The notes beneath the pieces were generated by a model. The model was not told the DNA's origin, searched no databases, and saw only the letters and a list, made by a program, of their open reading frames with translations. A stretch of 64,000 nt of DNA from Yuukianura sp. NJ FZ-2021 (Eukaryota). Of this stretch, positions 3,801 to 46,360 are shown piece after piece (positions within the stretch are counted from its first letter, which is position 1; each line of letters begins with the position of its first letter). The stretch is from contig CM102288.1 in assembly GCA_046563655.1 (NCBI GenBank), positions 1,178,001 through 1,242,000 on the forward strand, given 5' to 3'. A program made the position numbers and the translations under genes.

Positions 3801-4655
3801 ACTCTATATCAAAAATCATCTCAATATTGTTGAAGTATTATTGTTGAAGTAAAAATATTTTTGAAGTAAAACAAGCTGCTGAAAGTATTGTTGATGAAAA
3901 TCGTATTTAGAACACCGAAAATTCATCGAAAACAGTTTGGGATTTTGAAATTTTCAGGTTTTCCACAAAATTGATGTTTTTGCCTAAAAACAGGAAAATA
4001 TATCCGGCTTTTTTCTGTTGTTTTTGAATTTTTTCAATTAGAATTTCCTGTTCAGATTGTTTTAGTACAAGTAATAACTTCCAAATAAAGGTTTTGTGAG
4101 ATGATAAATTTTCTGGTTACGGTCTTTGGTGAGGGGGTGTGAAATTTGGGCCGTGGGGCGTTTATTTACAGATATTGGATTTTACACTTTCAATTTCTGT
4201 GTATTTACAAACTGCCTTTGTGTTTTGCCTACTTCATGCAAAATGATGAAGGCAGATTCAATTTCCACCTTCATTGTTCTCTTCACCAATCCATCATCGC
4301 ACTACCGTCTTTAAGAACAGAATTGCTAAGTGGCTTACCAAAAACCTAACTGTTTCTTTCAAATTGCCAAACACGTTCAGTCATTTCCCTCCACGTGCTT
4401 CTCTCCTTAATGTTTTCATGTATTCAGGTCTTGGAGAGACGCAGAGGGAGTAACTATCTGTTTATTGTTTTATGTGTTCATTGACCCAGAGAAATGCAAA
4501 AGAACTGAGAGATGCTGTAGAGCAAGACTTTTCCAATTAATGCCAATGAAACTTGTCTCAAGAAATTTCAAACCCTATTAATTTTAATGTCGTTTTGTTC
4601 CAAAACGGACGAGCATCTCATGTTTTAAAATTCTTGATTTAATTTTGTTTTAGAA

Positions 4656-6938: not shown

Positions 6939-9362
6939 ATGTGTGCCAAACCACATCCACTGGATCCACTTTCGGAAGACGAAATTAGAAAATGCTCAAA
7001 AATTGTTTCTGAAACGTATCCCAACGAATCATGGATCTTCAATTCCATTACGTTGGAGGAACCAGAAAAATCGCTGTTCAACTCAGTTTCAAGCGTTCCT
7101 AGAAAAGCGTTTGTGATTCTGATACACACAGGGTTAAGGTCGCGAGGTCAAGTTTCAGAAGTTGTGGTAAATTTGGACACTGAACGTGTGGAAACCTTTG
7201 TTAACGTTGAAGCTGGTAATCAACCGACTTTGACTCCCGAAGATTGTTTCGATGCTGAAAACATTGCAAAATGTGACCAAGGAGTTGTTAAGCGTTGTGG
7301 CGAGCTCGGATACACGAATATGAATTTGGTTTCTGCAGATCCTTGGTAAGAAGTTCAAAAAATCAAATGGTCCAATTTTGTAATTTTTGCAAAACCTCAT
7401 GCTAATTTCTTTAAAAAAATACAATTTTTTCACAGGTCCACTGGATACTTGGAAGATCGATCCGAATTTGATGGAATGAGACTTGTTCAGTTGTTTATGT
7501 ACGGCAGAGAGCATGAAGATGACAACCACTACGCTCATCCGTTTGATTTTGTCGTTTGTGAGTTGTCAAAATCAAAATTTTGTTCAAAAACATCGAAAGT
7601 TGTGCTTTTTTGTAGTGGTTGACCTAACCGGAAGAAATGTAGTGGCAATTGAAAATTTGCCAGGACATGGAACCGTTGCAGTTCCACGAGCAAAAAGAAA
7701 CTACCACGCAGAATTCCTTGGAGAAAATTTTTTGCGTACTGATTTGAAACCGCTTCAGTCACTTTCACCTGATGGACCAAGTTTTAAAGTGACTGGAAAC
7801 TTAATCCAGTGGCAAAAATTTGGCATTCGAATCAGGTAAAGTTCAAAAATGACAACCAATTTTGAAAATTTTGTTTTTGACAATTTCCCACATTTTTACG
7901 TTTAGCTTCAACTATCGTGAAGGACTTGTACTGCATAACGTCACATACAAAGATGGCAATCAAGTAAGACCGATACTCCACAGAGCATCGATTGCTGAAA
8001 TGGCTGTACCTTATGGAGATCCACAGCCACCGTACCATCGTAAATGTGTAAGAAAAGTTGTGGCTCATTTTGTTCGTTGACTATTTTGTTGTTGAGCAAA
8101 TTAGGAAGCAAACTTTCACAAAAGTTGGCCTTTTTGTGTATGTTTTTAGGCCTTTGATGTATCGGATTATGGATTGGGATTTTGTACAAATTCGTTGGAG
8201 TTGGGCTGCGACTGTTTTGGAACAATCAAGTACTTTGATGCTGTTCTGAACAAGCACAATGGTGAACCCTACACTATCAAAAATGCTATTTGTCTTCACG
8301 AGGAAGATGACGGTGAAAGCAATTTCTGAAAAGTTTGAAATTTTTAAGTAATGATATTTTGGAATTTGAACTTTTGAAATTTTGGAACAGGAATTTTGTT
8401 CAAACACACTGAGTACCGGAACGGAAAAGTTGGGCTTGCGCGGTCACGACGCTTAGTCTTAAGCTTCATCGTGACAGTCGTGAACTATGAGTACTGTCTG
8501 TACTGGTCATTCCACTTAGATGGCAGTATCAAGTTCAACGTCAAGGCCACTGGAATGCTAAGCACGAATCTTACCAACACAATTTCACCCAAACATGGAA
8601 CTCTCGTATCCAAAAATGTAGAAGCACAATTTCATCAACACATTTTTGTCGCCAGAATTGATACAATGATTGATGGAATTCACAATTCAGTTTCAACAAT
8701 AGATGTCGAACCGGTACAAGATCCAATCGGTTCGGAAAAGAACCGGTACGGTCAGGGTTTTCGTTTAGTCGAAAAGCTTCTGCGCAGTACTGCTCAAGCA
8801 CAAGTTCAAGCAGCTCCAGAAAAATTTCGATACTGGAAAATCTTCAATCAAAATTCAATTAATCCCGTGACTGGACAACCAGTTGCCTGGAAACTCATTC
8901 CGACCAATCCCTGCAAGTTATTGGCCGGTCCTGGAAGTTATGTTAGCAAAAAAGCTGAATTTGCAAAGAACGCTCTCTGGGTCACTCCGTATGCCAAAGG
9001 TCAAAGGTTTCCTTCTGGATTTTATGTACTCAACAAAGGAAAAGCAGAAGATGGCATTGGTCAATGGGTCAAAGAGGACAAAAATATTGACAATGAAGAG
9101 ATCGTTCTGTGGCATGTGTTTGGAATGACGCATTGTCCAAGAACGGAAGATTTTCCAATCATGAATGTGGAGTAAGTTTTAAAACAAAAGTAGACTGAAA
9201 ACTAAAAAAAGACAAATTTTTGAAGAAAAAGTTAGCTTTTTATAATCTTGTTGAGTGTTACTCTTTTTGACATTCAATTTTAGAGAAACTGGGTTCACGC
9301 TGAAACCAAACAACTTCTTCGCTGCGAATCCCGGTCTGGACGTTCCACCACCATCGAAATAA
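6939..9362 (+). CDS. Copper-containing (TPQ) primary amine oxidase, microbial-type, no signal peptide (7 exons, 637 aa)
   Basis: Exons 6939-7345, 7436-7557, 7616-7835, 7906-8047, 8150-8312, 8391-9171 and 9284-9362 join in frame. Motifs: HPLDPLS start, [12 protein letters not shown] (active-site base Asp), LELGCDC, VVNYEY (TPQ consensus, Tyr codon 8486-8488), HQH and [12 protein letters not shown] (copper ligands), [13 protein letters not shown]. Confidence 0.93.
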
Positions 9363-15595: not shown

Positions 15596-17195
15596 AAAAT
15601 AACTTGAAAAACTAGTTTAAAAAAAAGTTTGTATTAAATTTTGGGAAACTTGTTAGCTCATAGGAATTTAAACTTACTTTTCTTAAAAAAATAAAACTAG
15701 ATGTTCTTCTTGGTGATGTCATCGGTGTATTTAAAACGAAACAAAAAAATACGTTGATTCTGCATCAGTTTCAGTTTAGTGTTAGTCCGGCTAATTTTTC
15801 TTTTTGAAACTCGAGTTTACCGCAATTCGAATGCAAAAAAACAACAACAAAAACTGCAATTAAATTTGTTGTATCATACTTATAACTCAAGTTTTGTCAT
15901 CATCTCCATTACAATGCTATGACCATGCTAAGTGTATGTTCGTTTGCGGTTTTAATTAACTTTTCATTAAGTCCGTCTTAACATAAAAGAGACACCAGTA
16001 GAACTTCAAGTGCGGCGCATTTCACTCATTTAGAACTCGCTCTGTATTAATTAACTAGCTTCAGAATTTGCTGAAGTTCAAACTTTGAGCAAAAGCAAAG
16101 TAAAAGCCTCAACGACTCTGCATTTTCAGTTTGATTTGATTATTTCACAACTTTATGAAACTTTAACAGCAAAAGTTTAAAACTTTAGAGAAAAAAATGT
16201 CATTTTAAGGGCCCATACACTGGACGCTAGAAGTTTCACAAATGAATGAGGTAAAAGCAAAATTTTCAAACTTTCAAAACAACAATAGTTTGTGTCTGTT
16301 TTTTTAGTAACTTTGAAATTGATAGCTTTGAAACAAAAACTCTGTTTACGACTCTGTGTGGATTGCGTATGAACATAAAGCATAATAATCCATATCCATA
16401 GCTTAAAATGGAAGTAACCTTGTCCCTATTTTAAACGAAAGACTAGAGTTGCGCCTTTGGTGCTGGAAAGAGCCTTGCTAAATCAATAGTGAGACTTGCG
16501 CTGAATCCCCAGTTGAAGCTTATAGTTTGTAAGGAAAAGAAAGAGAAAGCGGTGTCGTAAGATCCTAAGGGAGGGAACCAAGGATCGATGGAGAAGAGCA
16601 ACTGGTTGTCATCCTGCTCAAAGGCTCTCCGACGTTCAACTGTCTTAAGGAACCAACAGTTCACCTTCTTCTTTTCAAAATACTTAGAGCTTTTGTAACT
16701 GCATGATGTCAATTTTCATAATTTAAAGTTACTTTAAACATGTCGCCATGAGCAGTTCAGTTGCTTCAGAATGGATCTCGGAGAGCTAGAAGTTTAGTAG
16801 GTCCGTAGTTTACTAAAGTACTTGTGGAGTGAAAGTTACTTGTAGAGAAAGATCAATGCAAAAAACTTTCACTTTTGAAAAAACTCAATAACTCTCTTCA
16901 ACTTCAGAAGTTGCTCAACCGTGAGGTACGAATTCAAATTCTGGTTTTTAAATTCTAAAATTAATATTAAACTTTCTAAATTCTCTGGTTCAAAATATTT
17001 TCTACTTTCTCCACTTTTACTCATTTCAAAAGTTGAATTGAAAAGTTCGGCGACATTGAAACTTGTTTTGACTGTTGACTAGTTCATATTTTGTTTACTC
17101 CAGTTACGGACTGCCCGTTTTCGAATAAGAAAGTATTAACCAGGGTCAAAGGTCAATCGAAGTAATTGTTGTATTGTAAGGTCATTACCGCCACG

Positions 17196-20100
17196 ATGCT
17201 GTCTCCAAAGATGCAGCGAGCAATACGTGTAAACGAGTCTCAATTACTAATGCTCTCAGAGAAAGCAAGATTTGACAATTCTATGACAGGGTATTTGTAC
17301 AAGAAGTCTCATGGAGCATCAAAATGGACTCGCAGATATTTCATTCTATTCCAAGTAAGCAACATTTTGAAAACAAAAAGAACAGATTTTGTTTAGATTT
17401 TGAAAATTTTGTGGACGAATTTTCCTGATTTACTAATTTTTTCTACTTTTTGAATACACAGAATCTTTTGTTCTATTTTGAAACGGAGGGAGGTGTGAGG
17501 CCTTCAGGAGTCATATTTCTTGAAGGTAAAGATTTCTTTGATTTCACTAATATTTTAATTACATTTAATTATAATTATTTTACATTCATAAATGTTATTT
17601 TACTGTAGGTTGTTACTGTGAAAGGTTAATTCTAAAGGAAAAGCACGTAAGTTCAAAACTTGTAGCCCAATTAAAAAGTACTTTACGTTTACGTGACTGT
17701 TTGAGTAATAGATGAATGTAGTAATTCTAAACTTATTACCATACGCAACATAATTTATTGAAATATAAAAAATAATAATTAAAATGTAATAATTAACACT
17801 TTTTTCAGTATTACTTTGGGATCACATATCGACGAGAGAACCTTCGACATTACGAACTTCGTGCAGAGTCTGAATCCGAATGCAAAGCTTGGATTGATGC
17901 TATCAGAGTAGCAAGGTAACAGAACATAGTTAGCCAAAGTCTTTGAATAAGGAATTTAGGAATTCAAAATTTTGATTTTTGAATACAAAATTATTTTATT
18001 GTTTTGAATTTTGATTTTTGGATTTTTTGCGATTCAGTTTTAATAAGCTTCTACTTCAAAAAGAGGAGCTGGAACAGAAGTACATACACTTGTTGCAGGT
18101 ACGTAGAATTTGTCTTTCTTGTAAAATTGGAAAAAATTACTGCTGCAAAAATCTATGTGAATTTCAGATAGTAGAGTCTGAGAAAACTGCAAAGTGGCAG
18201 TACACTGTTCAATGTGAGCAATTGGCTTCGGAAATTAAGAAGTTACGATCTGAGGTAACTGGAATACTTTAGTTTGATTAGCTAAGCTAAACTTTAACTT
18301 TTGATTTTTTGAAAAGCTTTGTGCACTGAAGAAAGAATGGCGGCTTGGTGGCGGATCCAATTCTGGACATTCACTGGAGTCTGAAGATTTGAAAAAAATT
18401 AAAAAAGTTCAAAGCTTTTTTCGTGGTTGGTTGTGTCGGAGAAGATGGAAACAAATTGTGGACGAGTACATCAAGTCCCCTCATGCAGAAGCCATGAGAA
18501 AACGAAACAGGTAACTTTTTAAAAATTTTGAAATTTTGAAATTTGTTTGTCAAAATTTTAAAACGTATGTTTCAGTTTGGTCTTCCGAATGGTGGAAGCA
18601 GAGGAGGAGTACGTGGAACAGCTAGAAGTTGTAGTTTCAGGGTTTCTGCGACCCATGCGCATGGCTGCCAGTTCCAAAACGTAAAACCAAAAACTTGACT
18701 AAAATTCAAAATTCTTACAGAACTTATAGTTCATCTTAAGTCAACCGGGGTAAAAGTAAACAAAAATAAAACTTTTGTGCGAATTTCAAACCCGCCTTCT
18801 TAAAATAGATGAACTATAATGCACTTTTTTTTTGAAATTGTGTCTAATCTGTTAAATTTTGAATCAACGTTTGCCTTAGTCCTCCAGTGACGCATGAGGA
18901 CGTGTCTTCGATCTTCCTGAACGTGGAGACTGTGTTATTTCTGCACCAGATCTTCCTCAAAGGACTCACTGCCAGAATAGAGAGCTGGCCCTCCCTGGTT
19001 CTAGGTATAGGTACAGTACACTTATGGGGGGCTTGATGAAGGAATAATCACAACCTACCCTATTTTTCACTTTTCAAGTGTCGTAAGTTTGCGCATGCAC
19101 TCAACTTTCTCTTCTAAAAACTATTCAAACGATAGTCAACTAACTGTTCGCTTAACAGTTCGCAGTGTTTTACAACAAGTTTGTCCAGCCAACAAGACTT
19201 TTAGCAGCACAAATCAAAAAATTCCATGTAGGGAAAGTTACTTTCCAAAAAATGTTCTCACAAAATTGAAAAAAAATTCAAATTTTGAATTTTGAGATAA
19301 AAATTCTAAATATAAATTTTCTCATCTTAGCAACACAAGTCTTGTTAACTGGCCAAATGCTTTTAGAGTGCTCAAAAAACTGCCGACTTTCTACTTGCTT
19401 CCTTGGCAGTTTTACTTCTTTTGCTAAGCACTGTGATGTGTATCGTTGAAATGTCAAATTTACTCACTCTAAGACAAAATGTTCAACACGTTTTTACTCA
19501 AAATGAAACTCCTCAACAATACCCTTGAACACCAACCTAACAAAACATCTTCCTAAACGACAAAGACAAAACAACAAACTCAATAAGCAAAAATCCAGTT
19601 TCTACATAACTTTCCCAAAAATTAACAAAAACCTTATAACCTTGAAATTTGTAAAACTCAAAATTTGAAAATTTGTTCCCTGTTCTTCCTTCTGTTGAAC
19701 TTTGACTTTTGACCTTCTTTTTTCTTCTGGCTTTGGTTGTTGTGTCAGACGCCTGAAGTGATTCACACCATTTCTGTGAAAAAACAATGGAAATTAAGAA
19801 CGTCTTGCACGATGTTTGATTGTTCAAATTTATTAATCATTGTTCTCATTTTGGCCGTCGACCTTGACACGGACAAACGGATATGGGGCGGTAAAACTTA
19901 AAATTACGAAAAATTCACAACCAAAAGAAAAGCTCAAGACAAGAGCTTATGCAGCCTCTTGTAACCTTTTTTCATGTTTTATTCGAAATTTTGAAAAAAG
20001 AAAGTTGAATTGATTGGAACGATGCAAATGATCGTGTTTTTCGTGAACTATTTTCCGGAAATGAGGAATGTTTTTTTTCTCTGTTTTTTAAAAAATCATT

Positions 20101-23100
20101 TTGGGCTCTCAACTCCTTCTCATTTGAAAGAGTTCGGATTACTTTTGAGTTTTCTCTTCCTTTTGATCTGTACCAGAGGGTGGGAATCAACAAAAATTTA
20201 AACAAACAACAGTTGTTAAAAATGTAACAAACAAACAAGGCAAGATTTGTTCAAAACGTGTAGAGTAGGCTGAGTAGGATTTTTCATGAGGAATTTGAAC
20301 AAACTTCTAATTCAAATTGTTTGTTTTAATTTTTCTGAAAAAATATCAGGAGATCTCTTTGATATGCTTCTGCCCATGCTCTCAATTTATCAAGAGTACG
20401 TCCGGAATCATCACTACTCCCTGCAGGTAAGAAAACTTCAAATTCATTTTTCAAAATTAAAAAAAAAGTTTCAAAATCAATTTAGCATTCATTTCATTTT
20501 TGTTTTGGTTGGTGATGCAAAATTTTAAAACATTTTTGACAAAAAGAAATGCCAATTGTCTTTTTTCTTCAAATTTTAAAAAAAAAGTGAAAGTTTTTGG
20601 TGAAAGTTTTGAATTGTTGTAATTTACGCTAACGGTTGCGAAGATAGACAAGCGAAGATAAATTTTTTCCAATTTTTTTTGTAAATTAATTGCATTAAAT
20701 ATGTATTACACTATGTAGTTCGTGTTTTATTTGCACCAATTACATGTTTCCTTACATGCTTTTAGTTGATTGATTTACTTTCTCCAGAGCCATTGATTGG
20801 ACTCGAGAGAGGAGAAAGTAGAAAATCATTAGTCTTCTCTATCCCTCTCTTTTAGCATCAGCAGAGCATTCTAGAAGTAAAAGCACTTTAGACTTACCTC
20901 CTCACGTTTACTCATTTCAGCATCAACGTCTATAGATTTTTGCATAGACGTTCCAGAATTTTTTGTCATAAAGTTTCCGGAGAGCGCTGTTCTGCTCTTC
21001 CATCACAAATTGATTTTTCGTGACATCCAAAACCTGCCTTCTGTTCCTAAATTCACGCCTTGAAAATTCTACAACGAAGAATTACCAATTTTAAGTTTTC
21101 GTAGTTTTCAAAATTTCCAAAAGTTGAAACAAAAATTTCAGGTTTTGACTGAATGCAAGCAACATGCTCAATTTGCTTCAATACTTACACGGCTGGAGAA
21201 CAAATGCGTGTGTCAAGGACGGTCACTCGAAACTTTCCTTACGTACCCCATGCATCAGGTACTACTTTCAAATTATCATAGTATTTTCAAAAATAAAATA
21301 AAATTTTCAAAAAAAATTTTGAACTTTTTTTTTTATTCCTTGCAGATTCCACGCTATATAATCACACTTCATGAGCTTTTGGCCCACACTCCATACGTAA
21401 GTATCATAAATACAAGATCAAAAGAAAACTATGAGAATTTACTCAAAATTTTGCAATCAATTCTACAAATTTTTTGGTTTGACTTTGAAATCTTTCAGGA
21501 TCACGTTGAACGGCGCAGTTTGGAAACCGCTAGAACTCAGCTAGAAGAACTTTCTAGACAGATGCACGATGAAGTCAGCGAAACAGAAAATTTGCGAAAA
21601 AATTTAGCAATTGAGCGCATGATCGTAGAAGGTTGCGACATTCTACTCGACGTCAATCAAGTTTTTGTTCGTCAAGGTTCACTTATTCACCTCGTCGACT
21701 CCGGCAAGAAAACGAGACCCCGAATTCTAAAGTTAGAAAAAGAAGCTGTTCGTCAAGCCTTTCTGTTCACGAATCACTTAATTCTGACCACTCGAGCAGC
21801 CAATGGGCGACTTCATCTAGTCCCTGCAGTTGGACGCATTACGCTTGCAGATTCTACGCTTATTGAAGATCCGTCGGAAGGAATTGAGGTAGAGGCGGGA
21901 GACACGTTGTCAATATCCTCACAGTCCAGTTACTCCGACTCTAGCAATTCACAACTAATCAAGAAATCCATTGAGCTGGCTCATGGTGGACTCGATTTCA
22001 AAATTATTCTGGACACTAAAAATGGTCCAGTGAATATCCATTTGTTGGCGCCCTCTTCACAGGAAAAACAGGCTTGGATTTCAGACATTTCACAGTGCAT
22101 GGATAACGTACATTTTAACGACCTTTTGCATGGATCCGACTCGGCTTCGGTTGCCGTTCCACATTCGGTACGAACCGATCCGAAACTTTTTAAAGATGAT
22201 GTCGACATCCGGTTTTCCAGAACACTCAACTCTTGCAAAGTTCCGCAAAGTGAGAATTTTTGGAAAAAAAAATGCCAAAATTTTTAAAAGTAAAAATTGA
22301 TTGTAAGTGATTCATGTCAACTTTTTTATGTTTAGTTCGATACGCGACGCCAAAAAGACTTTTGGAACGATTGACAGATTTGAGATTCTTGTCGATTGAT
22401 TTTCTAAATACGTTTCTGTTGACGTATCGCGTTTTTACGGACTCTATAACAGTTCTGGAAGCACTTAAAAAAGTGTACTACTGCGCAGAACCTTTGGACT
22501 CTACTGGAGAAGTGTAAGTTCATAAGCAAGTTTCCTGGTTTTTTGTGTAGCTTTTCAATGTGTACATAACTGTTGTTTATGTATTTAGTTTGGATGGAAT
22601 TGTAAAAGAAGATGACATACGTTTGGAAGGATATCGACGCATCTCCACTGCGTCAACAGTTTCTGGCTATGGAACGGAGAGTGAGCGTGATCCGGCTATG
22701 ATGTTTGAAGCTCGCGGCCCTCATTGGCGATGGAGTTTCAGAAAAAGTTAGTTTAATTTTAAAAAGTCAAAAAAAGAAGAAAAATTTTCAAAAAACTAAT
22801 GAAATTGTTAATTTTTTGTGCTTCTTCTAGTGGAAGAGGAAACGAAATGTCTTCATCTTCTTCCAAATCCAGCGAGTCCTCCAGCTCGGAAGAAGTCGGT
22901 AACGCTACGAGTGGAAGACATCGGAGGTCATTTGCTTGTGCCCCCGGGGGGAGGTGTGTCATCCAGTAGTGAAACACTTACAGATCAGGTTAGGTAGCAG
23001 ACCTAATGATTTTTCAGAAATTTACCTGGACTAGCGATTAGCGAAACAAAATAATCTAAGAAAAATAATTGAAAAAATCGTGTGCTAATTTTTCCTAATT

Positions 23101-25180
23101 TTGAAAATGGCAGCGAATCAACAAAAAAAGACATTCGAGCGTGACTTCTTTAACTTCAGAAGATTCTGATCAGGAAGATGAAGTACCAGCGCCTGTAACC
23201 AGCACAAGTGCGGCCAATTGTAAGTTAATACCACGAATAACTTAAACCTAACAAAAGCTAAGTTTTTCATTAAAGTTAGTTTTTTTTTTTCAAAAGCTCC
23301 CTCACAAATCCGAAAAGCGTCTTCTACTTCCATTTACGCCTCAATTTTGCAACGTCGCGCCTCAAAACAGCGACCGTCATGTGTAGAGTCAGAAGGCGGC
23401 GGATCCAGCAGCACTCCACGCTCATCTTTTCAAACGCACGGATCAGAGTCACCGCAAATGAGCAGTAAAGCTGGAGTTGTCGTCACGAGTTCACGCCAAT
23501 CACAACGACGTTCTTCATCTGCTTCAGCAGCCGCAGCATTTGCTATTGCCACTGCAGGGTCACAGAATTCCAGACATCCTGGACAAACCGAAATCGTTTT
23601 ACCGGAAAACGAAGAACTCAAATTTGTTAGACCCAGAAAAGAAAGCGTTTTGTCGAGTGCTGCAACGATGCGGGTTTTGTCAGTTTTGCGTCATTGGGTA
23701 GCTAAACATTCCCAGGATTTCCAGGATGATGAAACAGTTGACAGCAATTGTAAGTCAAAATTAAAAATTATGGGGGGAAAGTTGTGAAATTTCGATTTTT
23801 TTTTCTTTTTGTTTTTAGCAAAACCGGTCCAACAACAGCAACAACCAGATGCTCCGAAACTACGAGATTTGACAGTGTCTTTCTTGGAAGATATTTTGTG
23901 CTCTCCAGCACTCCTGCCGGCTGAAAACAAAGCAGCATCCCAATTGTTACGCTTACTTACAAGAGACCAACCTGAAAAAACTGATTTGAAGGCACTGTTT
24001 ATGCCAACACAGAGCAAGGAAAACATTGAGACACTTTCTGCACTGGAAATTGCAGAACAAATGACATATCTCGACCATCAAATATTTGTGTCAATTCGTT
24101 CAGAGTAAGATTATTCATTTAAAAAATGAATTAAAATAATATAATAATATTTTAATCGACATTTTTTTTATATAGAGAATTCTTGGGCCAAAATTGGACT
24201 AAAGAGAATAAGGACGTGAAGGCCCCCCATATTACTCTGATGACTCGCAGGTTTAACGAGGTGAGTCGGCTTGTAGTGTCAGAGATCATGCGCAGACCGA
24301 CGCAGCAGGCTCGACTTCAGGCCATGGAGAAATGGGCGGCCGTCGGTGATATTTGCAGGGTTCTACACAACTTCAATGGAGTGCTACAGGTTAATTTTTT
24401 GTAACTTTAAAATAACATATTTGATGATTAACTTTTACTTTTATGTAAAATTTCCTAGATATGTGCTGCTTTTACAAACTCCGCAGTTTTTCGTCTCAAG
24501 AAAACGCATGACAAACTCACCAAAACGGTAATAGTACACAACCTGCGAAATCACAAACTGATTATCGCCTTGATTAACTTTAGCTACAAGCTATTTTAAA
24601 ATTTAGCAATTAAATTTATTATAATATTTATAAGATAATAAGTTATTATTAAAAATTGTTTTATTAGACTCGTGGAACTCTGGACCGGCTCCACAGTTTG
24701 GTTGGAGGTGACGGACGATTTCGTGGACTGCGTGAGGCGCTGCATCGCGTCGATCCGCCTGGAATTCCTTACCTAGGTGAATCTGCAACTATATTTTATA
24801 TATTGTATAATAATAATAATATAATGTAATACAATAATATAACATTAAATTGAGATATTAATTTTATTTTGTTCCTCACGACCTTGATGTTTTTAGGAAT
24901 GTACTTGAGTGATCTCACGTTCATAGAAGAAGGAACGCCAAACTTTACGCAAGACGGTTTGCTAAATTTTGCCAAAATGAGAATGATTGCCCACGTGATT
25001 CGAGAAATTCGTCACTTCCAGCAAACGCCGTACAAAATCGAAATAGCTCCGAAAGCAAGCAACTACCTTCGTGACCCCTCACTTCTTCTGGACGATGACC
25101 AACTGTACAAACTGAGTTTACTCATAGAGCCAAAGCAGGGAAGACTCACTTCACAGTCATCAACTGACAGGAAAATATAA
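17196..25180 (+). CDS. RasGRF: Ras-specific guanine nucleotide-releasing factor (PH-coiled coil-IQ-DH-PH-REM-CDC25), >20 exons
   Basis: N-terminal PH domain ([18 protein letters not shown]), IQ motif ([14 protein letters not shown]), DH domain ([37 protein letters not shown]), second PH domain, REM ([26 protein letters not shown]) and CDC25 domain ([36 protein letters not shown]). Confidence 0.95.
18724..18819. mobile_element. Small MITE-like element in RasGRF intron
   Basis: 13-bp inverted repeats TTATAGTTCATCT (18724-18736) and AGATGAACTATAA (18807-18819); compatible with a TA target duplication. Confidence 0.5.
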
Positions 25181-26198: not shown

Positions 26199-29100
26199 TT
26201 ACAGTTTATGATAAAGAATAGTTGAGCAGAAATTGTTAGAATTGTCACTCTGGCGAGCCAGAATTGCCAAATTCTCTCCAACTACCATATTTTTAGCTGC
26301 TTTTGTGTTAACATTATACATGTACACTTCCGTATTGCCCAGTAGCTCGATCATGTTATCCTGACAATCCTCTGTGTTCAAACACGTTTGATCATAGTTG
26401 TTGAAAAAGTTGTACAGACCAGCTCCATAAATATACACATTTCGAGATTCGGAAATTCGCAAAGCATAGGATAAATTGCAAGTGTAGGAATCTGCTGGGC
26501 AGTGGGAATAATCCGAATCGGAGTAAACCGGATTAGCTGTAAACGGTAACGGCGCCTTTGGACCGGGTTGCCAGTACGGTGTTCTGCAAATTCAATTTAA
26601 GCAAAAATGTAAAAAATTTCAAATTTTCAATTTTTTAAAAACTTACTCCGACTGGATCATCGTCATAAAAATGTTGCTCGCTCTCGAAATTTGGTACTGT
26701 GAGAATACATTATGTTCCGATTGCGTTCCATAGAACCAAACCGGTCCTTCCGTAGATTCAACCAAAAGACCACGCCCAGTATAAATTGAAATTTGTCTTT
26801 GAGCTACACCATCGTCCAAGTCATGGTCAGCCGTCCATGCCCACACGTTTTCAAAATATCCAGAACCAGATTCCGTTACATGGAGCAACATAAATGCTGA
26901 TTCACAGTCAGGGTCAAACTGTTGACCTTTCGGACACTGTTCAAATTGGAATTGAGATCCCCGGAACCCGCCCACTCTGAAATGGGAATCCCAAATCCCG
27001 GCGCTACCCGCCTCGTTTCCTCGGATGTTCCATTCAACCAAAATGGCGCCCGGTTGTGCCCCGAGGGTTGAAAACATCACGTCCGTAATTTCAACCAATC
27101 CGGTTTCACCTGGAAGTCCAACTTGCAACATCGGTTGTGGATTGTTGGCGTCTTTAAAGTAAGAATTCCCGCCCGCCATAATAAGGGACCACAATTCTCC
27201 AATAATTCTCGTGTTTGGTGGAATTCTTACTGTTGAGTAAAGAACGTAGGCACCGTGCGGTAAGTAAATGACTTTTCCAACGTTTGCGTTGATCACTGCT
27301 TGTAAAGCCGCAGAGTCATCAGTGACCCCGTCTCCTCTTACCCCAAAATCTAAGAAAAAATCCAATTTTGACAATTTTTCACGTTTGAAAAAGAAACTTT
27401 GAAATTTTCAAATTTTTACAACTTTCATACCTCGGACGTTGATCATGGCTCCCGCTGAGATGTCGCCATACTGCTGTCGTGACTTTTCGAAAAATTGGCC
27501 TTGACTATTAAGAAGTGATGGAGATTTGGTTGGTGGTGGCAAATTTCCTTGGACGAACGTCCCAGTACCGGATTGGTCATCGTAAAAACTGCCTCTGCCC
27601 CAAGATGTAATGGCAAAAGTACCTCCGGGAAGAACTGAAATCATGTCGACATCAACGATAACCTCTCCGACGCGCTCAATTTGAACGTTGTCCAATAGGA
27701 GTGTTGCTGAAGTGTCGGGTGTGGCTGGAGCAGGGTTGGCGTGTGTTTTGATTCCAAACGTAGTGTCGATGATCTTGGAGTCCATAAGCAGAACACTGCC
27801 AATGGCTGATGCTTTATTTGGATCTGGTTGCGACATGTCAATTCCAACGTCACAGTTTCTAATTTCAAGGTTCTTGAACGACCATTGCCAATTCTAAAAA
27901 AGGAGAGATTTTTAATAGAATTTGGTTCAAATCCATCCAGTAGTTTTAACAAAAGTTTTTCAAAATTTAAGAGTTTAAACAGTTTAAATACAGGAAACAT
28001 AGAGTTTAAACGAGGTAGAAGTACGAACTCACCCTCTCTTTCAAACAATTTAGAACAGTTTTGAAAAATAAATCGTCTAAAACTTAAACCTTTCGTGTTG
28101 AAAAGTTTCTATAGGCTCACAATTTGCAATTCTTCTGTCAAAAAAGTACACAAAGATAAAAATTTTACCCAAGCCAAGAAAATGGCTGTCGTACATCCGT
28201 CGAATTTGAGATTTCTGGATAAAAACTGAAAAAACATAAAAAATTTAACGAATTAATGAATTTTTAACATAAATGTTGATTTTTTTTAACATCAAAATTA
28301 TTTCATTTGTCTATCAGAAGTGAAATTCACGTACCTGTTGATTTCCCACCCACATTCCAAATCTGCCTCCTTCAAAGGTCAGGTCAGACATGAATCCGCC
28401 AGATCCATTTTCCATCCAGATTCCTTGATGGTTAGATTGTGGAGTCATGATGAATCGGAGATTGACCAATGATGTAGCTTGAGCCACTTGCCAATGAACT
28501 CCAGTAGTTGTAGCCGTGGATGGAGTTCGGGTCAAGTCAAACACGAAGTTCCGAACTTGACGAAAGAAGTTGTTTTGATTGATGTACCAATTCTGACCGT
28601 TGCCTAAATTTCAATAGACAAAAATACTTTTCAGTTTCCAGAATTCGTATTTTAAAAATACGGACATTTTGTAAGCAGGAATTGCCGACAAATTCTTAAC
28701 AAACATGGTCAGTTTTCAGCGAAGAAATTGTTTTTTCTTTCTAAATTTTTGCGAAATTTTTTAGATAAGACGCGTCTTATACGCGAGAAATTAGGGTACT
28801 AGAATTTGAGTGACAATTTATGCTTACTGTTGTAAGGATTTGAGTCCACGACGGCCATTCCGGCAAAGTTCGGAGCAGCAAGTAATACTGGTGGATCATT
28901 GACATTTCCTACAAGTTGTGTGAAATAGTACATGATAATTGGAGAAGAAATTAAGTATGTTCCGGAAGGAACGTAGACTAATGCTGGAAGAATAGTGGAT
29001 GATCCGCAGTTGTCACCACATCGACCACCAGATGAAATTGCTATGTTGAAACACGCTGTGTCATCAGTTATGCCATCTCCAACACATCCGAAGTCCTTCA

Positions 29101-29342
29101 CGTTACGATAGACGCTGTAACCGGAAGGATTCGGATGGAACACGGATTCTCCGTGCTCAACCGTAGCAATCCACATTTCAGCATTGTCAATCTACAAATT
29201 AATTTTGAAGTTACTTTACTTTCAAGTTGAAGCAAAACTTAATTTAAGCTTTAACAAAATTATTTTCACTTACGGTTTTTGAATCTGTGGATTTATGAAG
29301 AACAGCTAAGCCCAGAAGAACAAACAGTACCTGTCGCAGCAT
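26199..29342 (-). CDS. Secreted glycoside hydrolase family 55 exo-beta-1,3-glucanase (laminarinase), fungal-type (7 exons, 769 aa)
   Basis: Exons 29342-29274, 29191-28828, 28603-28335, 28225-28169, 27893-27431, 27349-26647 and 26583-26199 sum to 2310 nt in frame. Signal peptide MLRQVLFVLLGLAVLH. Two beta-helix starts (RNVKDFGCVGDGITDDT; DFGVRGDGVTDDSAALQ). Motifs QNNFFRQVRNF, HWQVAQATSL, ENGSGGFMSDL, WAWTADHDLD, SEHN and IQSETPYWQP (catalytic Glu motif of GH55). Confidence 0.95.
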
Positions 29343-30218: not shown

Positions 30219-33200
30219 TTAGGCTTTAGATTCTCCATTGTCTGGAGGAGAACTGACTCTTTTTGGTGTACTCCGTTTAGCCGTTGAGGTCAGGAGGCCA
30301 GTGACCTTTGGTGACTTTTTAAACACGAACGATGAGAATCTGGGGAGTATTAAGCGTTTCATTGGTGATTTCCCTTCTTCATTTGATATCATGCTTTCAA
30401 GGCTTCCAGCACATACAAGGTCACCTCTCCCCCCGCAAGTATTGTCACCCCCACCCACTGTTGCCGATGCTTCGGAACTGCGACGACGCCGTGAGCCTGT
30501 TGCTGGTTTAGGGGGCACAAGGGGTGGTGACCTTGGACTTCCGGTGATCAGCGGAACTTGACCTTTGTCAGGAGTTTGGCTTTTACGAAAATAGGAGAAC
30601 GCATGGGTAGACTTTAGTTTTGGAGAATGTGTTAGCGTGGAGTTACTTGGCAAAGATTCCGAAGAAGTCACCACCCCAGCGGCTTCATCTTTCTCGGATT
30701 TTGGCATTCCGAGTTTTTCAGTAAAAAGTTTGAAGCGTCGAAAAAAACTTTCTTTTGATTTCGGTTTGAGCGGAGTTTCTCCAGTTTTTGCCGCCAATTC
30801 TCCCGTAGTCAATGAATTCAGCTTGTTCGAACTCTCTTCCTGGACAATTTGAACTTGGATTCCAGAATGGTCTGAAGTATCATTCTCTCTGCTGCCCTTT
30901 CGACTCACTGCAGTCAGTTCCATTGAACTTTCGGTGGCAATTTTGAATTTGAGTGCTTTTTCACTGACACTGACCTCTGTCATGACCTCTCCTTCCAGGT
31001 CAGAGTCATGGTCAGATTGACATGAGTCTATTGAGGGGAAGGACGAGAGGTGCGGAATTGAGGGGCGGGGTGGTGGGAGAGAAGCGGAAGAGTCACGATG
31101 TGGATTTGGCAACGTCGATGAGGGGCGGCTGACTTCTGTGGAGGTGGAAAATGAATTGTCGCGTGTTCGTCTCCCACCCCCTCCGCCCCACCCAGCATCG
31201 GACGGCAAATGATCACAAAGACTGTTTGGGTGGGACGATGACACGGTGGAGACGCGGTGACCCTGCGCATCCGTACTTCTGCGTTTTAGCATCTGCGCAG
31301 CCTCGTTGAGTCGACGGTAGTAGTCTAGGGCGTAGCGTACTGGGGCGATTATGACGGGCTGAAAAATATCAAAGGTCAAAAGTCAATTTAACCTAAATTT
31401 TATTATTTTATTATTTTAACCTAAATGGTTACTTCTAGTTCAGTAAAAAGTGACGCAAGAGCTTCAAATAGTGGAAGTAAGACGAGTCCAATGAAGGAGC
31501 ATTGTGAGGATGGCTTAGTAATTTTGTCACGGTCCATAAATGGCGTCACTGGAAGCCCCTCCAGTTTTTCAGTATCACTTTGTTGAAAAAATTCCTGGGA
31601 AAAGAAATTCAAAATTTTTTTTAAAATTCAAAACCTTTGTGTACTCAAGAGGATACTACATCAACTTCACGCATCTTTAGACTCCGAAAACGTCATTAGA
31701 AAATAGTCAAGAAGAAATTTTAGACATTTCTGAGACAGCTAGATTTCATCAAACAGAAATTTTAGGCATTCCTCAGACTTAACTAGATTTCATCAAGCAG
31801 AAATTTTAGATATTCCTGAGACTTAGCTCATCTAATCCCATCCTAACCTAATCTAATCTAACGAATGGAATCCTAGCCTAAATTATGTAAGGATTCGAAT
31901 CCTATCCTAGCCTAACCTAATCTAAGGATTCCAATCCTATCCTAACCTAACCTAATCTAAGTATTCCAATCCTATCCTAACCTAATCTAATCTAAGGATT
32001 TGTATCCTATCCTAACCTAAAAATAAAAAATTTTACATTCAAGGGACTTAGCAAGGTCTGGTTTTCAGTAAAAAAAAATTTTTATATTCCAACATATTCT
32101 TCGAGTATTTTACTCGAGAAATTTGTTCCAGGATATTCCTCGAGCATTTTGCTCGAGAAATTTGTTCCAGGATATTCCTCGAGCATTTTGCTCGAGAAAT
32201 TTGTTCCAGGATATTCCTCGAGCATTTTGCTCGAGAAATTTGTTCCAGGATATTCCTCGAGCATTTTGCTCGAGAAATTTGTTCCAGGATATTCCTCGAG
32301 CATTTTGCTCGAGAAATTTGTTCCAGGATATTCCTCGAGCATTTTGCTCGAGAAATTTGTTCCAGGATATTCCTCGAGCATTTTGCTCGAGAAATTTGTT
32401 CCAGTATATTCCTGAGACTTAGCTACATAGATTGCATCAAGAAGAAATTTTAGGTATTCCTGAGACTTAGCTCATCTAATCCCATCCTAACCTAATCTAA
32501 TCTAACGAATGGAATCCTAGCCTAAATTATGTAAGGATTCGAATCCTATCCTAGCCTAACCTAATCTAAGGATCCCAATCCTATCCTAACCTAACCTAAT
32601 CTAAGCATTCCAATCCTATCCTAACCTAATCCAATGTAAGGATTTGTATCCTATCCTAACCTAAAAATATAGTCTGGTTTTCAGTAAAAAAAAAATTATA
32701 TTCCAACATATTCCTCGAGCATTTTGCTCGAAAAATTTATTCCAGATTAATCCTCGAGTATTCATCAGCTAGATTTCAGCTAGATTTCATCAACTAAATT
32801 GGTACTCAGGAGGTTAAAATTTTCAAAAATTTTTGATTATGTAATTGGTCCAATTTCCACTTACTGTGAGAAGACAGTCCAACCAAGGTTCTGCTACGTT
32901 CATTGGCCTCGCTTCATTTGAAATATCCGCCACTTTGATTAGAACCATGCACAACTAGAAAAGAAAGAAAAGAAACTAAAGGTCAAAGGTCACAGTCAAA
33001 AGAAAAATGTCAAAGGTAATGCGTTCCTATTGACATTTCCATTGACAACTCTTATTTAGCCTAAGTACTCACTAGATTCACATGGCTTTTGTTGGATGGT
33101 TCAAAGGAGTGAATAATTTCTCGGAAGGAAGAAAGGATTTCATTATGTCTTGCCATGTCCGTTGCTAGGATACACCGAATCATTCCTTCTCTCACTGTAC

Positions 33201-36200
33201 GCCATGTTTCAGGAGCAAGATTTTGAAAAATATTGGAAGCAGGATCCGCCAAAATTCGAAAAGCAGTTGAACAGTGATGATTCTCCAAAGGAGAAATGTC
33301 GTTATAACGAACAGCCAACTCCGTTTGGGCATTGATCTGAAAACAGAGTAAAGAAAGTTCAAAATTTGGCTAAAACTAATCAATCACAAATTCTGACACT
33401 AGTGGTTCGATTCTTTTCAAATTTCAGAAAGTTAAAGTTTCGAAAAGTTTTATCTCGTTTCTTAAAATTTGCAGAACAAGTTACCCTGCTGCTTGAAACT
33501 TAATCACTTTTCCTCTTGGGGCCAAATTTATATAAGATCTTAAGATGTTATCTTTCGTTTTTTCTGTTTTTCTGAAACTGTTTACTTTAGTGGATGTTTT
33601 AGTAAAGTGGATCGATAGGAGGAGGGCGTTTGTTCATTGGATTAATGGAGACACTTTTTGATGAAACGGAATTGACTTAATGTGTTCCTGTGGAGGGAGT
33701 AACTATACTTGACTTCCTGCTGATGTTGACATACTTGGTAAATGTTGTTGTAGCCTGGATGGTCCAAGTCATGGCACACACAAGAGGTCAGCAGTATCAG
33801 GATCTCCAGGTCACCAATCCGCTCGCCCAATTTCACTTTCGATACGATCCCAAACATCTACAAAAGTGAAAAAAACATCCAAAGTGAAAGCTTTCTCTCA
33901 AATTTTGGAAAGAAAAAATCCAAAGGGAAAGCTTTCTCTCAAATTTTTGAAAAAAAAATCCAAAGTGAAAGCTTTCTCTCAAATTTAGAAAAAATCCAAA
34001 GTGAAAGCTTTCTCTCAAATTTAGAAAAAATCCAAAGTGAAAGCTTTCTCTCAAATTTAAAAAAGAATCCAAAGGGAAAGCTTTCTCTCAAATTTTTGCA
34101 ACTCTTTAACATTACCATTTGCGTTACACAGAAGGAGTGTCGGAAGTTATGGAATGGAACGTCATTGTAATGTCTGTAAATACTCATAAGGAAGTTCTGG
34201 AGCACTCCAATCTCAATATGGAATTTATTTATTAGGTCCAGTTTGTTGTACATCGTTTGAATGAGGAGCAGCAATTCATCATCTTCCCACTGCCAGTTGT
34301 CAAAAGTAGACTCCTTAAGAAGACTTATTGTTTCCTCACTTAGAATCACATTACTAAAAGAATTACAAAGTAAAAGATTTAGTTGAGGTTATAAATTTCA
34401 ATGAGAGATTTGCTAATTTGAAGATGTTGGTGAAAGTGTAATCATTCTCTTAAAGATTCCTGACCTGACTTTGAGGAACTTGTTGCAGACGATATCCTTT
34501 ACTTCGGCACTACCCGCCCGGTAAATGGCTGTCTGCCTTGAACTCTCTTTTGGAAGCGGTAGAGGATGTAATCCTTTGTAAAACCCTACAAATTTCATTA
34601 AAATCACAACCATGACAAGATGAGCTTCTTCTTCGATTAAAATACCGTAAAACTTCAACAAAGAGTCCCGGGGATTTATGAGGAAGAAAAACCCAGGAAC
34701 TTTTAGACTAAGCAAGGTTTTCAAATCGGGTTCCATTTTCACCGGAAGTTGATTTTTAGAACTTGATTTAAAATTCGCTGAACTATTTTGTTTAAATTGT
34801 AGCATCATTGACGAATTCAGGTTAAAGATTACAGAGTCCAGTCCTGGATTTGAATTAAAACTGGCTAATGAAAGCAAGCTTTGAAATCAACTTCCGGTGA
34901 AAGTTGAACCCTATCTAAAAAGTTCTCTGTACTAAATTTGAATTTGAAATTCAGAAACTTGAGTTTCAGGAGCTTTCTCCTGAGAGAATTTCAAAAATTG
35001 TCATAAGCGCCAGGTAATTCACTTGAAGTTTTACGGTATTTGTTCCACTGGAATCAAAAATTGGTTTCGTTTTACCTAACCAGCTAAGATGTTCCAATTC
35101 TTCTAATTTGATCCTAAGCGCTCCTAGAGTCTCCTTAAGTTCTCTGATGCTTTCGGAAGAGGATTTTTGGCCTTTGAGTCTCCCTTCTAATGAATGCAAA
35201 CTGCAAATTTTGAAACAAAATGAAAAATTCTAAGCAAAATTTCGGATTTTCCAAATCTCAAGTGAAATTTCACATTTTCGAAATTTGAGTAATTCTCATA
35301 GTAAATTCTCCTCTATGCTTCAAAAATTGAATTTTTTGGTATTCTCCTCCCACTCTTCTTGTCTCTTTCTGAAATTTGGTTTTAAAAAGTTAGAATTTAA
35401 ATCCTTGGGAAAGTGTTAGACATGGACTAAGGGTTTTTGGTGGCTTTGGGTTTGTGGTGGTGAAAATCTGATTGTAAGAGGCGGCGAGACATCAGTGTAA
35501 CTAATCCCTTTTAACAACGCTTCCAGACTAGCCCAAAATCACAAAATGGAATAAGAAGGACGAAAAAAGAAAGCAAAATGGAGAAAGGCAAGGCCGTGCA
35601 TTCTGAAGACAAGATCAAAGCCTTTCTCTTCTTACTTTTTCTCCAGCAAGGAAACTCTTTTTTAAAAAGAAAAAGAGAAAGCTTGGTTCTCGTTGTGAAG
35701 TGGCGCTGATTCTGACGTGAGTCGAAAAGCCTTTTCGTCTGCGTTTGTACTCCGATGTATACTCATAGTTATAACATAGTCATACTATATACTAGTGTAT
35801 GCTTAGTGTAGTTAGTTACTCCCTCCAAAATTAATTATTGAAGAGAAGATGGTTTTACATTGGGGAAAGCTCGTATTTTGGGTGAAAATTTTCTGACTTT
35901 CGTCTGACGCGCGCAGCAAGCTCAGCAGTTTTATCCTTCCGCTGGGCTTGGCTCATGGCGAAATCTGTGTGTTGATGAACTGAAGGATTTAAAAAAAAAT
36001 ATTTTAATGAGGTCTGGAATTCCAAATTCAGAACTTTTCATTATACTATACCGAAAAAGCCGAATTTTCCAAAAACTTGAGTTGTAGTTAGTTACTACAT
36101 GTTAGTTGTAACTCTTACTTTAGGTTTAGGTTTCAGCCTAACTCGTTCTCTTTCTCTCTCTGCTGGAATTCTAACTTAGGAGGGAGTAACTAGGACAGCA

Positions 36201-45055: not shown

Positions 45056-46360
45056 TTAGTTCTTGAGTAGTTTTCCGGCTCGTTCGTTTGCAATTTTTAT
45101 TCGGTCAACGTTGGAATCCGCCTGTCAAAAACAAAAATTAAGTTAGCAAACTCATTTTTGTTTATCTAAACAAGTGTAAAACGTGGAGAAAGTCACGGAG
45201 AAAGCAATGAATCGAACTCTAATTTTAAGCACGCATACTCTAATCAACAGAATATTAAATTTTGAAAACGTGCTGACCTTGATATTTATACGGTCGAGTT
45301 GCCTGTTCTGACTTTCAATTTCCGATCCCATGTCAATGGCCATGTTTCGCAGATTCCCAACCATCGTGGATACTTGGCCCATGTTGTTCTCCATTTCATC
45401 CTCACGAGCATCATTTGTTATCCTGAAAGTTAGTGATTCCAGTTAAGTTTAAAAAGTGAAAGTTAGTTGATTAGATCTTACTTTCCTATGTATCCACCAT
45501 AAGCTGGTACTTGTCCGTCCACAACTCTCTGTGGTTGGTTGTTCACAACTTTCCCATCGTCAGTTCCCTTCCATGTTGCAGCATCTTCCTTAAAACCGCC
45601 ACTCCTGAAAAAGAAAGCAAATTAAAAGTGAAATTTTAAAGTTCTTCTGTAAATTATACTAAAAAGTGTCGATTATGTTGAAATTGTACTTTTTCCAAGG
45701 AAGTACACAAAGACCACAACATTTCTCCATTCCTTCCAAGTTCTTCTCTGCCTGACGCATGTCTTCGTTGATCTGAGTCATCCCAGATTCAATATGATCC
45801 AGTTGCTCTGAAAGTTACAACACAAATTAATATTTCAAAAGTAATTTAATAAAGATCAATTTTCTCCTGTATCGTGTAAATATTTTACCTCCTTGATCAT
45901 CTAGAGCCACCTAGAGTTAAATTGAAACAAAAAATAAATGTTACGTAATGGGAAATCAATTTAAATCAAAGTTTAGCTGTGAATTTCCTTACGAGAGTCC
46001 GAATGCCAGCTTCTTTACTCTAAAAATTCCAGAGAAAGTACTTTTTAGTTCACATCGCATCTTCAGAAACATCAACGGTAAAAGAATTTTGACTTGAGTA
46101 AATTATTTTACCTCCTCACAAAGTGCCAACATACGCCTTGTGCTATCCAATGACTGAAACAAAAATACGTTCGTTTTAGTCAGAGGTAATAATTTCCAAA
46201 GTATTTTGGATTTTGGGAGATTTTGGAAATTTTGATTTGTTATTTGGGATTTGGATTGGCTGACCTCATCAGTGGCCTGGTTGGCTTTAATCTGTAGCTC
46301 TTCCAGTTCTGTCTTGGGAGCTCCATTTTGAGCAGGGTCCAATGGTGGTGGCGGTGGCAT
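45056..46360 (-). CDS. Snap25: Synaptosomal-associated protein 25 (t-SNARE), 8 coding exons incl. 27-nt and 22-nt microexons
   Basis: Spliced product: MPPPPP...[48 protein letters not shown]...[12 protein letters not shown]|...|[69 protein letters not shown]. The palmitoylation Cys cluster is present. Confidence 0.97.

What the first reader, a model, noticed from the sequence alone, without database searches (positions are those of the whole stretch)
26199..29342. Fungal-type GH55 beta-1,3-glucanase domesticated in an animal genome
Seen: a complete 769-aa secreted GH55 with 6 spliceosomal introns of the same short AT-rich style as the host genes, wedged tail-to-tail with RasGRF and just downstream of PDE9. 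One intron splits the codon of the putative catalytic Glu (QSE|TPY). Established: GH55 is a fungal/bacterial family, generally absent from animals, and it degrades beta-1,3-glucan, the main fungal cell-wall polymer. Inference: a horizontally acquired digestive or antifungal enzyme in a fungivore. Flanking metazoan genes argue against contamination. Fungal-derived CAZymes have been reported in soil arthropods, so this may be a new locus rather than a new phenomenon.
Basis: partly seen in the sequence, partly recalled or inferred. Interest (0 to 1): 0.75.

Follow-up and report, generated by a model that had tools for sequence, protein, structure and literature searches.

The report
Mould glucanase gene in a springtail
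A springtail genome carries an intact gene for a fungal cell-wall-digesting enzyme that springtails apparently took from a pin mould long ago and probably passed on to fungus gnats; a springtail gene of this family was already listed as foreign, so the new part is the donor, an inherited fungal intron and the likely relay.

Summary
Confirmed: a single-copy, intact 769-aa GH55 gene (7 exons, 6 GT-AG introns, minus strand) lies between RasGRF and PDE9; intron 6 splits the codon of Glu642, the catalytic acid. The host is a springtail. All 16 checked active-site positions are kept, including two exo-type markers. The protein belongs to a springtail + Sciaridae clade (100/100), sister to Mucorales (100/100) and nested in Mucoromycota (AU p=0.002); the oribatid mite GH55 is a separate acquisition (p=2e-5). 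Intron 5 also breaks Cunninghamella and Umbelopsis ORF fragments at the same site, so it probably came with the gene. Fungus-gnat copies nest inside springtail copies (p=0.017), which suggests a mould > springtail > gnat relay. Not a new phenomenon: an Orchesella GH55 is in a 2016 table of transferred genes (PMC4987106 Table S7), and springtail-to-Bradysia P450 transfers are reported (cited in PMC12051294). The scan listed no earlier GH55 note but shows the same pattern for other genes of this genome. Expression and activity are untested.

The parts
29274..29342 (-). GH55 exon 1: start codon and hydrophobic signal-peptide-like leader (aa 1-23)
29192..29273 (-). intron 1, 82 nt, phase 0
   Evidence: L002 and L005 also have an intron after the leader, exact site not comparable
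28828..29191 (-). GH55 exon 2: start of N-terminal beta-helix (PF12708)
28604..28827 (-). intron 2, 224 nt, phase 1; same site and phase in L009
   Evidence: L009 acceptor read by eye
28335..28603 (-). GH55 exon 3: Q154, N155 (exo marker, PcLam55A Asn147), F157, Q186, S212
28226..28334 (-). intron 3, 109 nt, phase 0; same site in L009 and, by a 20-aa read-through insert, probably in Pseudolycoriella P0010
28169..28225 (-). GH55 exon 4 (57 nt)
27894..28168 (-). intron 4, 275 nt, phase 0; same site in L002, L005, L009
27431..27893 (-). GH55 exon 5: end of N-domain and linker
27350..27430 (-). intron 5, 81 nt, phase 1 in codon 408; same site in L002, L005, L009 and inferred in Cunninghamella and Umbelopsis: probably inherited from the fungal donor
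26647..27349 (-). GH55 exon 6: C-terminal beta-helix with W577, W579, D582, H583, Q593 (exo marker), E619, H620
26584..26646 (-). intron 6, 63 nt, phase 2, splits the codon of catalytic Glu642; shared with L009 only among the genes compared
26199..26583 (-). GH55 exon 7: last base of the Glu642 codon, Y645, F701, F702, stop
17184..25180 (+). neighbouring host gene RasGRF (approximate start), tail to tail; best hit Folsomia candida 85%
30219..34388 (-). neighbouring host gene, PDE9-like phosphodiesterase (3' part seen; extends further upstream)

Best explanation
The gene is a fungal-type GH55 exo-beta-1,3-glucosidase. An early springtail acquired it as genomic DNA, with at least one intron, from a Mucorales-related mould. 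It was kept by vertical descent in several springtail orders and gained further introns. Mechanism (inferred from solved relatives): the secreted two-beta-helix enzyme binds the non-reducing end of beta-1,3/1,6-glucan in the cleft between its domains. Glu642 protonates the glycosidic oxygen, a Gln154/Gln186/Ser212/Glu619 network activates water, and glucose is released with inversion. The likely use is digestion of fungal cell wall in the gut. Shown: gene model, residues, tree position, intron sites. Inferred: secretion, activity, exo mode, gut role.
For: Intact ORF with canonical introns. Host neighbours are arthropod; RasGRF is 85% identical to Folsomia and at most 66% to the other 119 listed hits. 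GC3 is 0.43 against 0.40-0.46 in 7 in-frame host exons (one further exon was out of frame and is ignored). Ranks 1-12 of 120 listed hits to exon 6 are 64-71% identical, and the six named ones are springtails and sciarids; the other 108 are at most 59%. IQ-TREE LG+G4, 51 rows: hexapod clade 100/100, plus Mucorales 100/100; same under LG+C20 PMSF, 30 rows. Mucoromycota monophyly without the hexapods is rejected, p=0.0018. All 16 checked active-site positions are kept, mapped to MnLam55A/PcLam55A numbering from PMC10637969. The Folsomia orthologue P0008 (64% identical) folds at pLDDT 95 and matches CtLam55 at TM 0.93 and PcLam55A at 0.91. Against L009, pN is 0.19 and pS 0.76 (saturated) over 617 codons. 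Four ORF fragments from Cunninghamella and Umbelopsis clusters stop matching at window aa 407/408 and continue with residues that fit a phase-1 GT donor; a fifth starts there.
Against: No reads, RNA or enzyme data for this genome. The fungal intron is inferred from protein fragments, not from fungal DNA. The donor depends on sampling: trees used only the top hits of two searches, and no bacterial GH55 was included. The structure was predicted for the Folsomia orthologue, not for the window protein. Exo versus endo mode cannot be read with certainty, because endo enzymes share most catalytic residues (PMC10637969).
Confidence: 0.88

Rival explanations
1. Add-on to the best explanation: the fungus-gnat (Sciaridae) copies came from a springtail, giving a two-step relay mould > springtail > fly.
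For: The 7-row clade holding the 4 named sciarid proteins (99/97) lies inside Folsomia (100/99), inside +Orchesella (100/98), inside the other springtail-side rows; same nesting under the mixture model. Holding the 11 springtail-side rows together without the sciarid clade is rejected, p-AU 0.0165. No other insect is named among the 120 listed hits of either search, though the same database holds RasGRF from many insect orders. Sciarid copies lie on 15-Mb and 193-Mb sequences. Precedent: 17 P450s from springtails into Bradysia, as cited in PMC12051294 (passage); terpene synthases from mites, PMC11665903 (passages).
Against: The AU group was named after a first tree had been seen, and p is modest. 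Six of the 11 'springtail-side' rows and 3 of the 7 'sciarid' rows are unnamed. Springtail paralogues (two in Folsomia) leave room for hidden paralogy. No sciarid genomic DNA was seen. L002 and L005 lack intron 3, which P0010 seems to share with the window gene.
Confidence: 0.65
2. One transfer into the hexapod ancestor, followed by duplication and loss in every insect lineage except Sciaridae.
For: Springtail and sciarid copies form one clade; gene loss is common (general knowledge).
Against: It needs many independent losses and still has to explain the nesting of sciarids beside Folsomia; no other insect was listed.
Confidence: 0.12
3. Springtails and sciarids took the gene separately from closely related, unsampled moulds.
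For: Both live on soil fungi (general knowledge); Mucorales sampling is thin (5 rows).
Against: The unsampled fungi would have to branch inside the springtail clade. No fungal sequence does so among 199 rows, and of 149 cluster representatives only two fragments exceed 52% identity, both unnamed.
Confidence: 0.12
4. The enzyme is used mainly for defence against fungi, or in another non-digestive role, rather than for feeding.
For: Fungal GH55s act on fungal walls in mycoparasitism (PMC10637969, introduction). The Orchesella GH55 row carries a cadmium-library EST tag, so it may respond to stress.
Against: An exo enzyme that releases glucose suits nutrition better than wall lysis (inference); the carriers are fungus or litter feeders (general knowledge).
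Confidence: 0.2
5. Fungal contamination or a chimeric assembly join.
Against: Orthologues in three named springtail genera and in independent metagenome contigs with the same intron sites; host-like GC3 and introns; no N and about 1-kb spacers to animal genes on both sides.
Confidence: 0.02

Closest known systems
Fungal GH55 exo-beta-1,3-glucosidases CtLam55 (PDB 5M5Z) and PcLam55A (PDB 3EQN)
   Same: Two beta-helix domains, catalytic Glu and Tyr, proton-relay residues, aromatic block, and the exo markers Asn147/Gln585 (window N155/Q593); exon 6 E 1e-84 and 2e-65
   Different: Encoded in an animal genome; nearer to Mucorales GH55s (57% to Chlamydoabsidia) than to these Dikarya enzymes; activity untested
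Endo-type GH55 MnLam55A (PDB 8JHH)
   Same: Fold and catalytic residues (Glu614 = Glu642)
   Different: Much weaker match (26-27% to the Folsomia model); endo enzymes lack the Asn/Gln pocket residues that the window protein has
Orchesella cincta Ocin01_11048, GH55/EXG1-like, in the table of horizontally transferred genes (PMC4987106, Table S7)
   Same: GH55 of fungal type in a springtail, called horizontally transferred in 2016; an O. cincta GH55 (P0129) is in the same clade as the window gene
   Different: Listed only as a table row with an ascomycete best hit (Saitoella); the passages seen give no donor tree, intron analysis or link to flies. That P0129 is Ocin01_11048 was not verified
GH55 of Folsomia candida (XP_021944673, XP_021952735), Allacma fusca, Bradysia (XP_037024340) and Pseudolycoriella
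   Same: Same clade, 59-64% identity over nearly the full length for the complete ones
   Different: The window gene with L009 forms its own early branch; one copy here against two in Folsomia and Pseudolycoriella
Arthropod-to-Sciaridae transfers: P450s from springtails and mites (Feyereisen 2023, seen only as cited in PMC12051294) and terpene synthases from mites (PMC11665903)
   Same: Gene shared by soil microarthropods and Sciaridae, nested in a non-insect clade
   Different: Here the family is a carbohydrate-active enzyme, and the first step, from a Mucorales-related fungus, is resolved as well
Oribatid mite GH55 (Medioppia subpectinata, P0161)
   Same: Fungal-type GH55 annotated in a soil arthropod with the same 16 residues
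   Different: Separate branch; one clade with the hexapods is rejected (p=2e-5); its contig is only 3.3 kb, so integration was not checked

Membership tests
GH55 | Sequence homology to characterised GH55 enzymes along both domains | tested here: met
   Exons 3, 6 and 7 hit only 5M5Z, 3EQN and 8JHH at E<0.001; PF12708 in both halves
GH55 | Two right-handed beta-helix domains joined by a linker | tested here: met
   Shown on the Folsomia orthologue P0008 (64% identical, no large indels): pLDDT 95, TM 0.93 to 5M5Z; the window protein itself was not folded
GH55 | General acid Glu with adjacent Tyr | tested here: met
   E642 aligns to MnLam55A Glu614 (PMC10637969); Y645 lies three residues on, as Tyr617 does
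GH55 | Proton-relay and subsite -1 residues, aromatic block | tested here: met
   Q154, Q186, S212, E619, H620, D582, F157, W577, W579
GH55, fungal exo type | Closed subsite -2 pocket residues Asn147 and Gln585 (PcLam55A), His576 | tested here: met
   N155, Q593, H583
GH55 | Inverting hydrolysis of laminarin / beta-1,3-glucan | not testable with these tools
   Needs recombinant enzyme
Secreted enzyme | Cleavable signal peptide | tested here: inconclusive
   Hydrophobic leader only; no predictor available
Horizontally acquired gene | Nested among donor-lineage sequences with support | tested here: met
Horizontally acquired gene | Physical linkage to host genes in reads | not testable with these tools
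   Assembly linkage only; no run id was available to lay
Horizontally acquired gene | Absent from the host's outgroups | tested here: inconclusive
   Only springtails, sciarids and one mite are named animals among the listed top 120 of two searches; lower-ranked and unnamed hits were not classified, and Diplura/Protura coverage is unknown

The most novel reading that the evidence does not exclude
A whole fungal gene, intron included, moved from a Mucorales-related mould into early springtails and later from an entomobryomorph springtail into the ancestor of fungus gnats. That is a two-step relay of a fungus-digesting enzyme between unrelated fungus feeders, with intron positions recording the route. 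With similar patterns noted for other genes of this genome, it would point to springtails as a recurring gene donor to Sciaridae.
Probability: 0.6. Interest if true: 0.62.

Novelty: new member of a known kind. Interest (0 to 1): 0.42.

Why it matters
Beta-1,3-glucan is a main fungal wall polymer, and an own exo-glucanase would let springtails and fungus gnats turn it into glucose without gut microbes. The gene is a clean marker for eukaryote-to-eukaryote transfer: it is large, well conserved and absent from most animals, and it has a resolvable donor and an apparently inherited intron. That makes the rarely documented animal-to-animal step (springtail to Sciaridae) testable with existing genomes. 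As a locus in one more springtail it is ordinary, because fungal CAZymes in springtails are well documented.

Tried and rejected
Search for RNA runs: no RNA holder was listed, which is no evidence either way; no reads were laid. Folding P0008 without an alignment failed (pLDDT 39) and was discarded; the second job with 119 rows worked. The profile search of 1.84 billion representatives gave unnamed hits only; of the 149 new ones two fragments were 63-69% identical and the rest at most 52%, and none went into the trees. dS against L009 is saturated, so no dN/dS ratio is given. One PDE exon in the GC3 comparison was out of frame and is ignored. No Mucorales or sciarid genomic locus was recognised among the 14 metagenome loci; 11 of the 14 were aligned and 3 spliced. 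A single origin with the mite GH55 was rejected. A functional meaning of the intron in the catalytic codon was rejected, because it is missing from most relatives compared. The Folsomia genome paper PMC5490193 has no 'GH55' in text, and its three supplements gave no hit for GH55, glucan, glucanase or pectate; they may list genes by id only. PMC9721047 was a false match (GH5_5). PMC12198962 has no 'GH55' in its main text. Trinca et al. 2023 on Pseudolycoriella CAZymes is not held and may already list the sciarid GH55.

Full report
Observation. The gene is as described. Seven exons on the minus strand (29342 to 26199) splice to 769 codons plus stop with no internal stop; the six introns are GT-AG, 63-275 nt, GC 0.17-0.30, phases 0,1,0,0,1,2. 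Intron 6 lies inside codon 642 (Glu). Neighbours are RasGRF on + (ends 25180) and a PDE9-like gene on -, with spacers of 1018 and 876 nt. Ten of 11 roughly delimited RasGRF introns are 66-197 nt and GC 0.10-0.28. GC3 is 0.43 against 0.40-0.46 in seven in-frame host exons. Two exon queries found one match each in the 98.7-Mb genome. The host is a springtail: a RasGRF exon is 85% identical to Folsomia candida and at most 66% to the other 119 listed proteins.

Family and mechanism. Exons 3, 6 and 7 match the three fungal GH55 structures 5M5Z, 3EQN and 8JHH. I read parts 1-3 of 6 of PMC10637969, which names the catalytic set. Window E642 aligns to MnLam55A Glu614, the general acid; Y645, Q154, Q186, S212, E619, H620, D582, F157, W577, W579, H583, F701 and F702 fill the other named positions. 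N155 and Q593 correspond to PcLam55A Asn147 and Gln585, which the paper calls conserved in exo-type and absent from endo-type enzymes (the PcLam55A numbering assumes a six-residue offset that fits His576, Ser583 and Gln585). All 16 positions checked are kept in the window protein. The Folsomia orthologue P0008, 64% identical, folds with a 119-row alignment at pLDDT 95 and matches 5M5Z at TM 0.93, 3EQN at 0.91 and 8JHH at 0.84. [quoted passage not shown] Secretion rests on a hydrophobic leader only; activity and gut role are inferred.

Relatives. With exon 6 as query, 897 proteins passed E 1e-20 and 120 were listed. Ranks 1-12 are 64-71% identical; six are named, all springtails (Folsomia x2, Allacma) or sciarid flies (Bradysia, Pseudolycoriella x2). 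The other 108 are at most 59%. A profile search (2447 hits, 120 listed) added Orchesella cincta and the oribatid mite Medioppia; Bradysia odoriphaga is a cluster member. No other animal is named in either list, but many rows are unnamed and lower ranks were not seen. Two nearby unnamed-clade rows are amoebozoans, so the family is also present in protists.

Trees. FastTree on 199 rows (all proteins of at least 400 aa then held, plus the window protein; one 140-aa fragment left out) put the window protein in an 18-row hexapod clade, sister to six Mucorales, inside Umbelopsis and Bifiguratus. IQ-TREE LG+G4 on 51 chosen rows gave hexapods 100/100 and hexapods + Mucorales 100/100; LG+C20 PMSF on 30 rows gave 100/100 and 100/99. 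Mucoromycota monophyly without the hexapods is rejected (p-AU 0.0018), and so is one clade of hexapods and the mite group (2e-5). That the Mucorales genera here all belong to Cunninghamellaceae is recalled, not from a call. Bacterial GH55s were not in the trees; the Streptomyces enzyme is only 13-15% identical to the model. Presence in Allacma as well as Folsomia and Orchesella puts the gain before the split of those springtail orders (inference).

Introns. Three of 14 metagenome loci were genomic hexapod-clade genes that I spliced. L009 (72% identical, sister to the window gene) shares introns 3, 4, 5 and 6 by script and intron 2 by eye. L002 and L005 share 4 and 5 only, and L005 has one more. 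pN against L009 is 0.19 with pS saturated at 0.76. No Mucorales DNA was on hand, but ORF fragments in the fungal protein clusters act as exon markers. One Cunninghamella and three Umbelopsis fragments stop matching their full-length proteins at window aa 407/408 and run on with residues that fit a phase-1 GT donor; a fourth Umbelopsis fragment begins at 408. The three Umbelopsis N-terminal fragments read through the sites of introns 1-4, and the Umbelopsis and Cunninghamella C-terminal fragments read through site 6. So intron 5 probably came with the gene, which implies transfer of genomic DNA. Intron 6 was probably gained in springtails; introns 1-4 are absent from Umbelopsis, and their state in Mucorales is open. 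The intron in the catalytic codon therefore looks incidental.

Fungus gnats. The four named sciarid proteins and three unnamed ones form a clade (99/97) inside Folsomia (100/99), inside +Orchesella (100/98) (same). Forcing the 11 springtail-side rows together costs 59 log-likelihood units, p-AU 0.0165. The group was named after a first tree was seen, and 6 of the 11 rows are unnamed, so this is moderate support. The Pseudolycoriella model P0010 has a 20-residue insert, Val to Gln, exactly at intron site 3, which looks like an unspliced intron shared with the window gene and L009. L002 and L005 lack it, so parallel gain or loss is needed either way. Sciarid copies lie on 15-Mb and 193-Mb sequences. 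I put the springtail-to-gnat step at about 0.65.

Prior knowledge. The Orchesella genome paper (PMC4987106; passages and rows of supplement file 2 seen, file 1 not searchable) lists Ocin01_11048, described as GH55/EXG1-like with a Saitoella best hit and a cadmium-library EST, in Table S7, the GO table of its 253 transferred genes. So GH55 as a foreign gene in a springtail is on record, though only as a table row; I did not verify that it is P0129. Folsomia has 229 CAZyme-bearing genes among 809 transferred ones (PMC5490193, passages); GH55 is not named in its text or in three supplements. Transfer into Sciaridae from other arthropods is reported for terpene synthases (PMC11665903, passages) and for 17 springtail P450s (seen only as cited in PMC12051294). 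A search for GH55 + horizontal gene transfer + Collembola found 0 papers. None of the papers listed contains 'GH55', and only an oomycete paper does; one search listed fungal papers and one false match. These searches cover open-access text only, and Trinca et al. 2023 on Pseudolycoriella CAZymes could not be read. bioRxiv supplements are closed. The scan's own notes list no GH55 finding but describe several other microbial-type genes of this genome shared by springtails and fungus gnats; these are unchecked AI notes.

Verdict. A real, intact, old fungal acquisition, and a new member of a known kind. Interest 0.42; the relay, if confirmed, about 0.6.

Noticed in passing
window ~6941-9175 (+): Copper amine oxidase (PF02727, PF01179). 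Its last exon matches yeast peroxisomal (E 2e-56) and bacterial phenylethylamine oxidases (4e-53) far better than human diamine oxidase (2e-14) or membrane amine oxidase (4e-9): a second microbial-type gene 17 kb from the GH55, probably also transferred. No tree was built.
   Followed up: partly
P0010 (Pseudolycoriella, KAJ6648844.1), residues ~210-229: 20-residue insert at the site of window intron 3, probably an unspliced 60-nt intron in the public gene model.
   Followed up: partly
P0129 (Orchesella, ODM95629.1): The model lacks two conserved stretches, including part of the aromatic block; either a faulty model or assembly, or a decaying copy.
   Followed up: no
P0161 (Medioppia) with P0147, P0136, P0138, P0139, P0141, P0148: A separate 7-row GH55 clade holding the one named mite protein: probably a second, independent animal acquisition; donor unresolved.
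   Followed up: partly
P0025, P0140: Fungal-type GH55 in two amoebozoan transcriptomes (Protostelium, Soliformovum), branching apart from the hexapod clade.
   Followed up: no
L010:5001-7283: Intronless fungal-type GH55 (54% to the window protein) in a 20.8-kb AT-rich metagenome contig; host unknown.
   Followed up: no
window ~32050-32420: Tandem array of about 36-bp units inside the PDE9-like gene region, seen as repeating ORF translations.
   Followed up: no
P0122 (Bradysia cluster fragment): Fragment stops matching at window aa 134, which suggests an intron site not present in the window gene.
   Followed up: no
window 4638-6300, 45152-45442, 47953-49099, 50969-51919, 56937-61504: Ordinary-looking host genes: Jiraiya-family membrane protein, a SNAP-25-like exon (label recalled, no Pfam hit), Ipi1/TEX10-like, Myb/SANT-like and a TGF-beta family ligand.
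   Followed up: no
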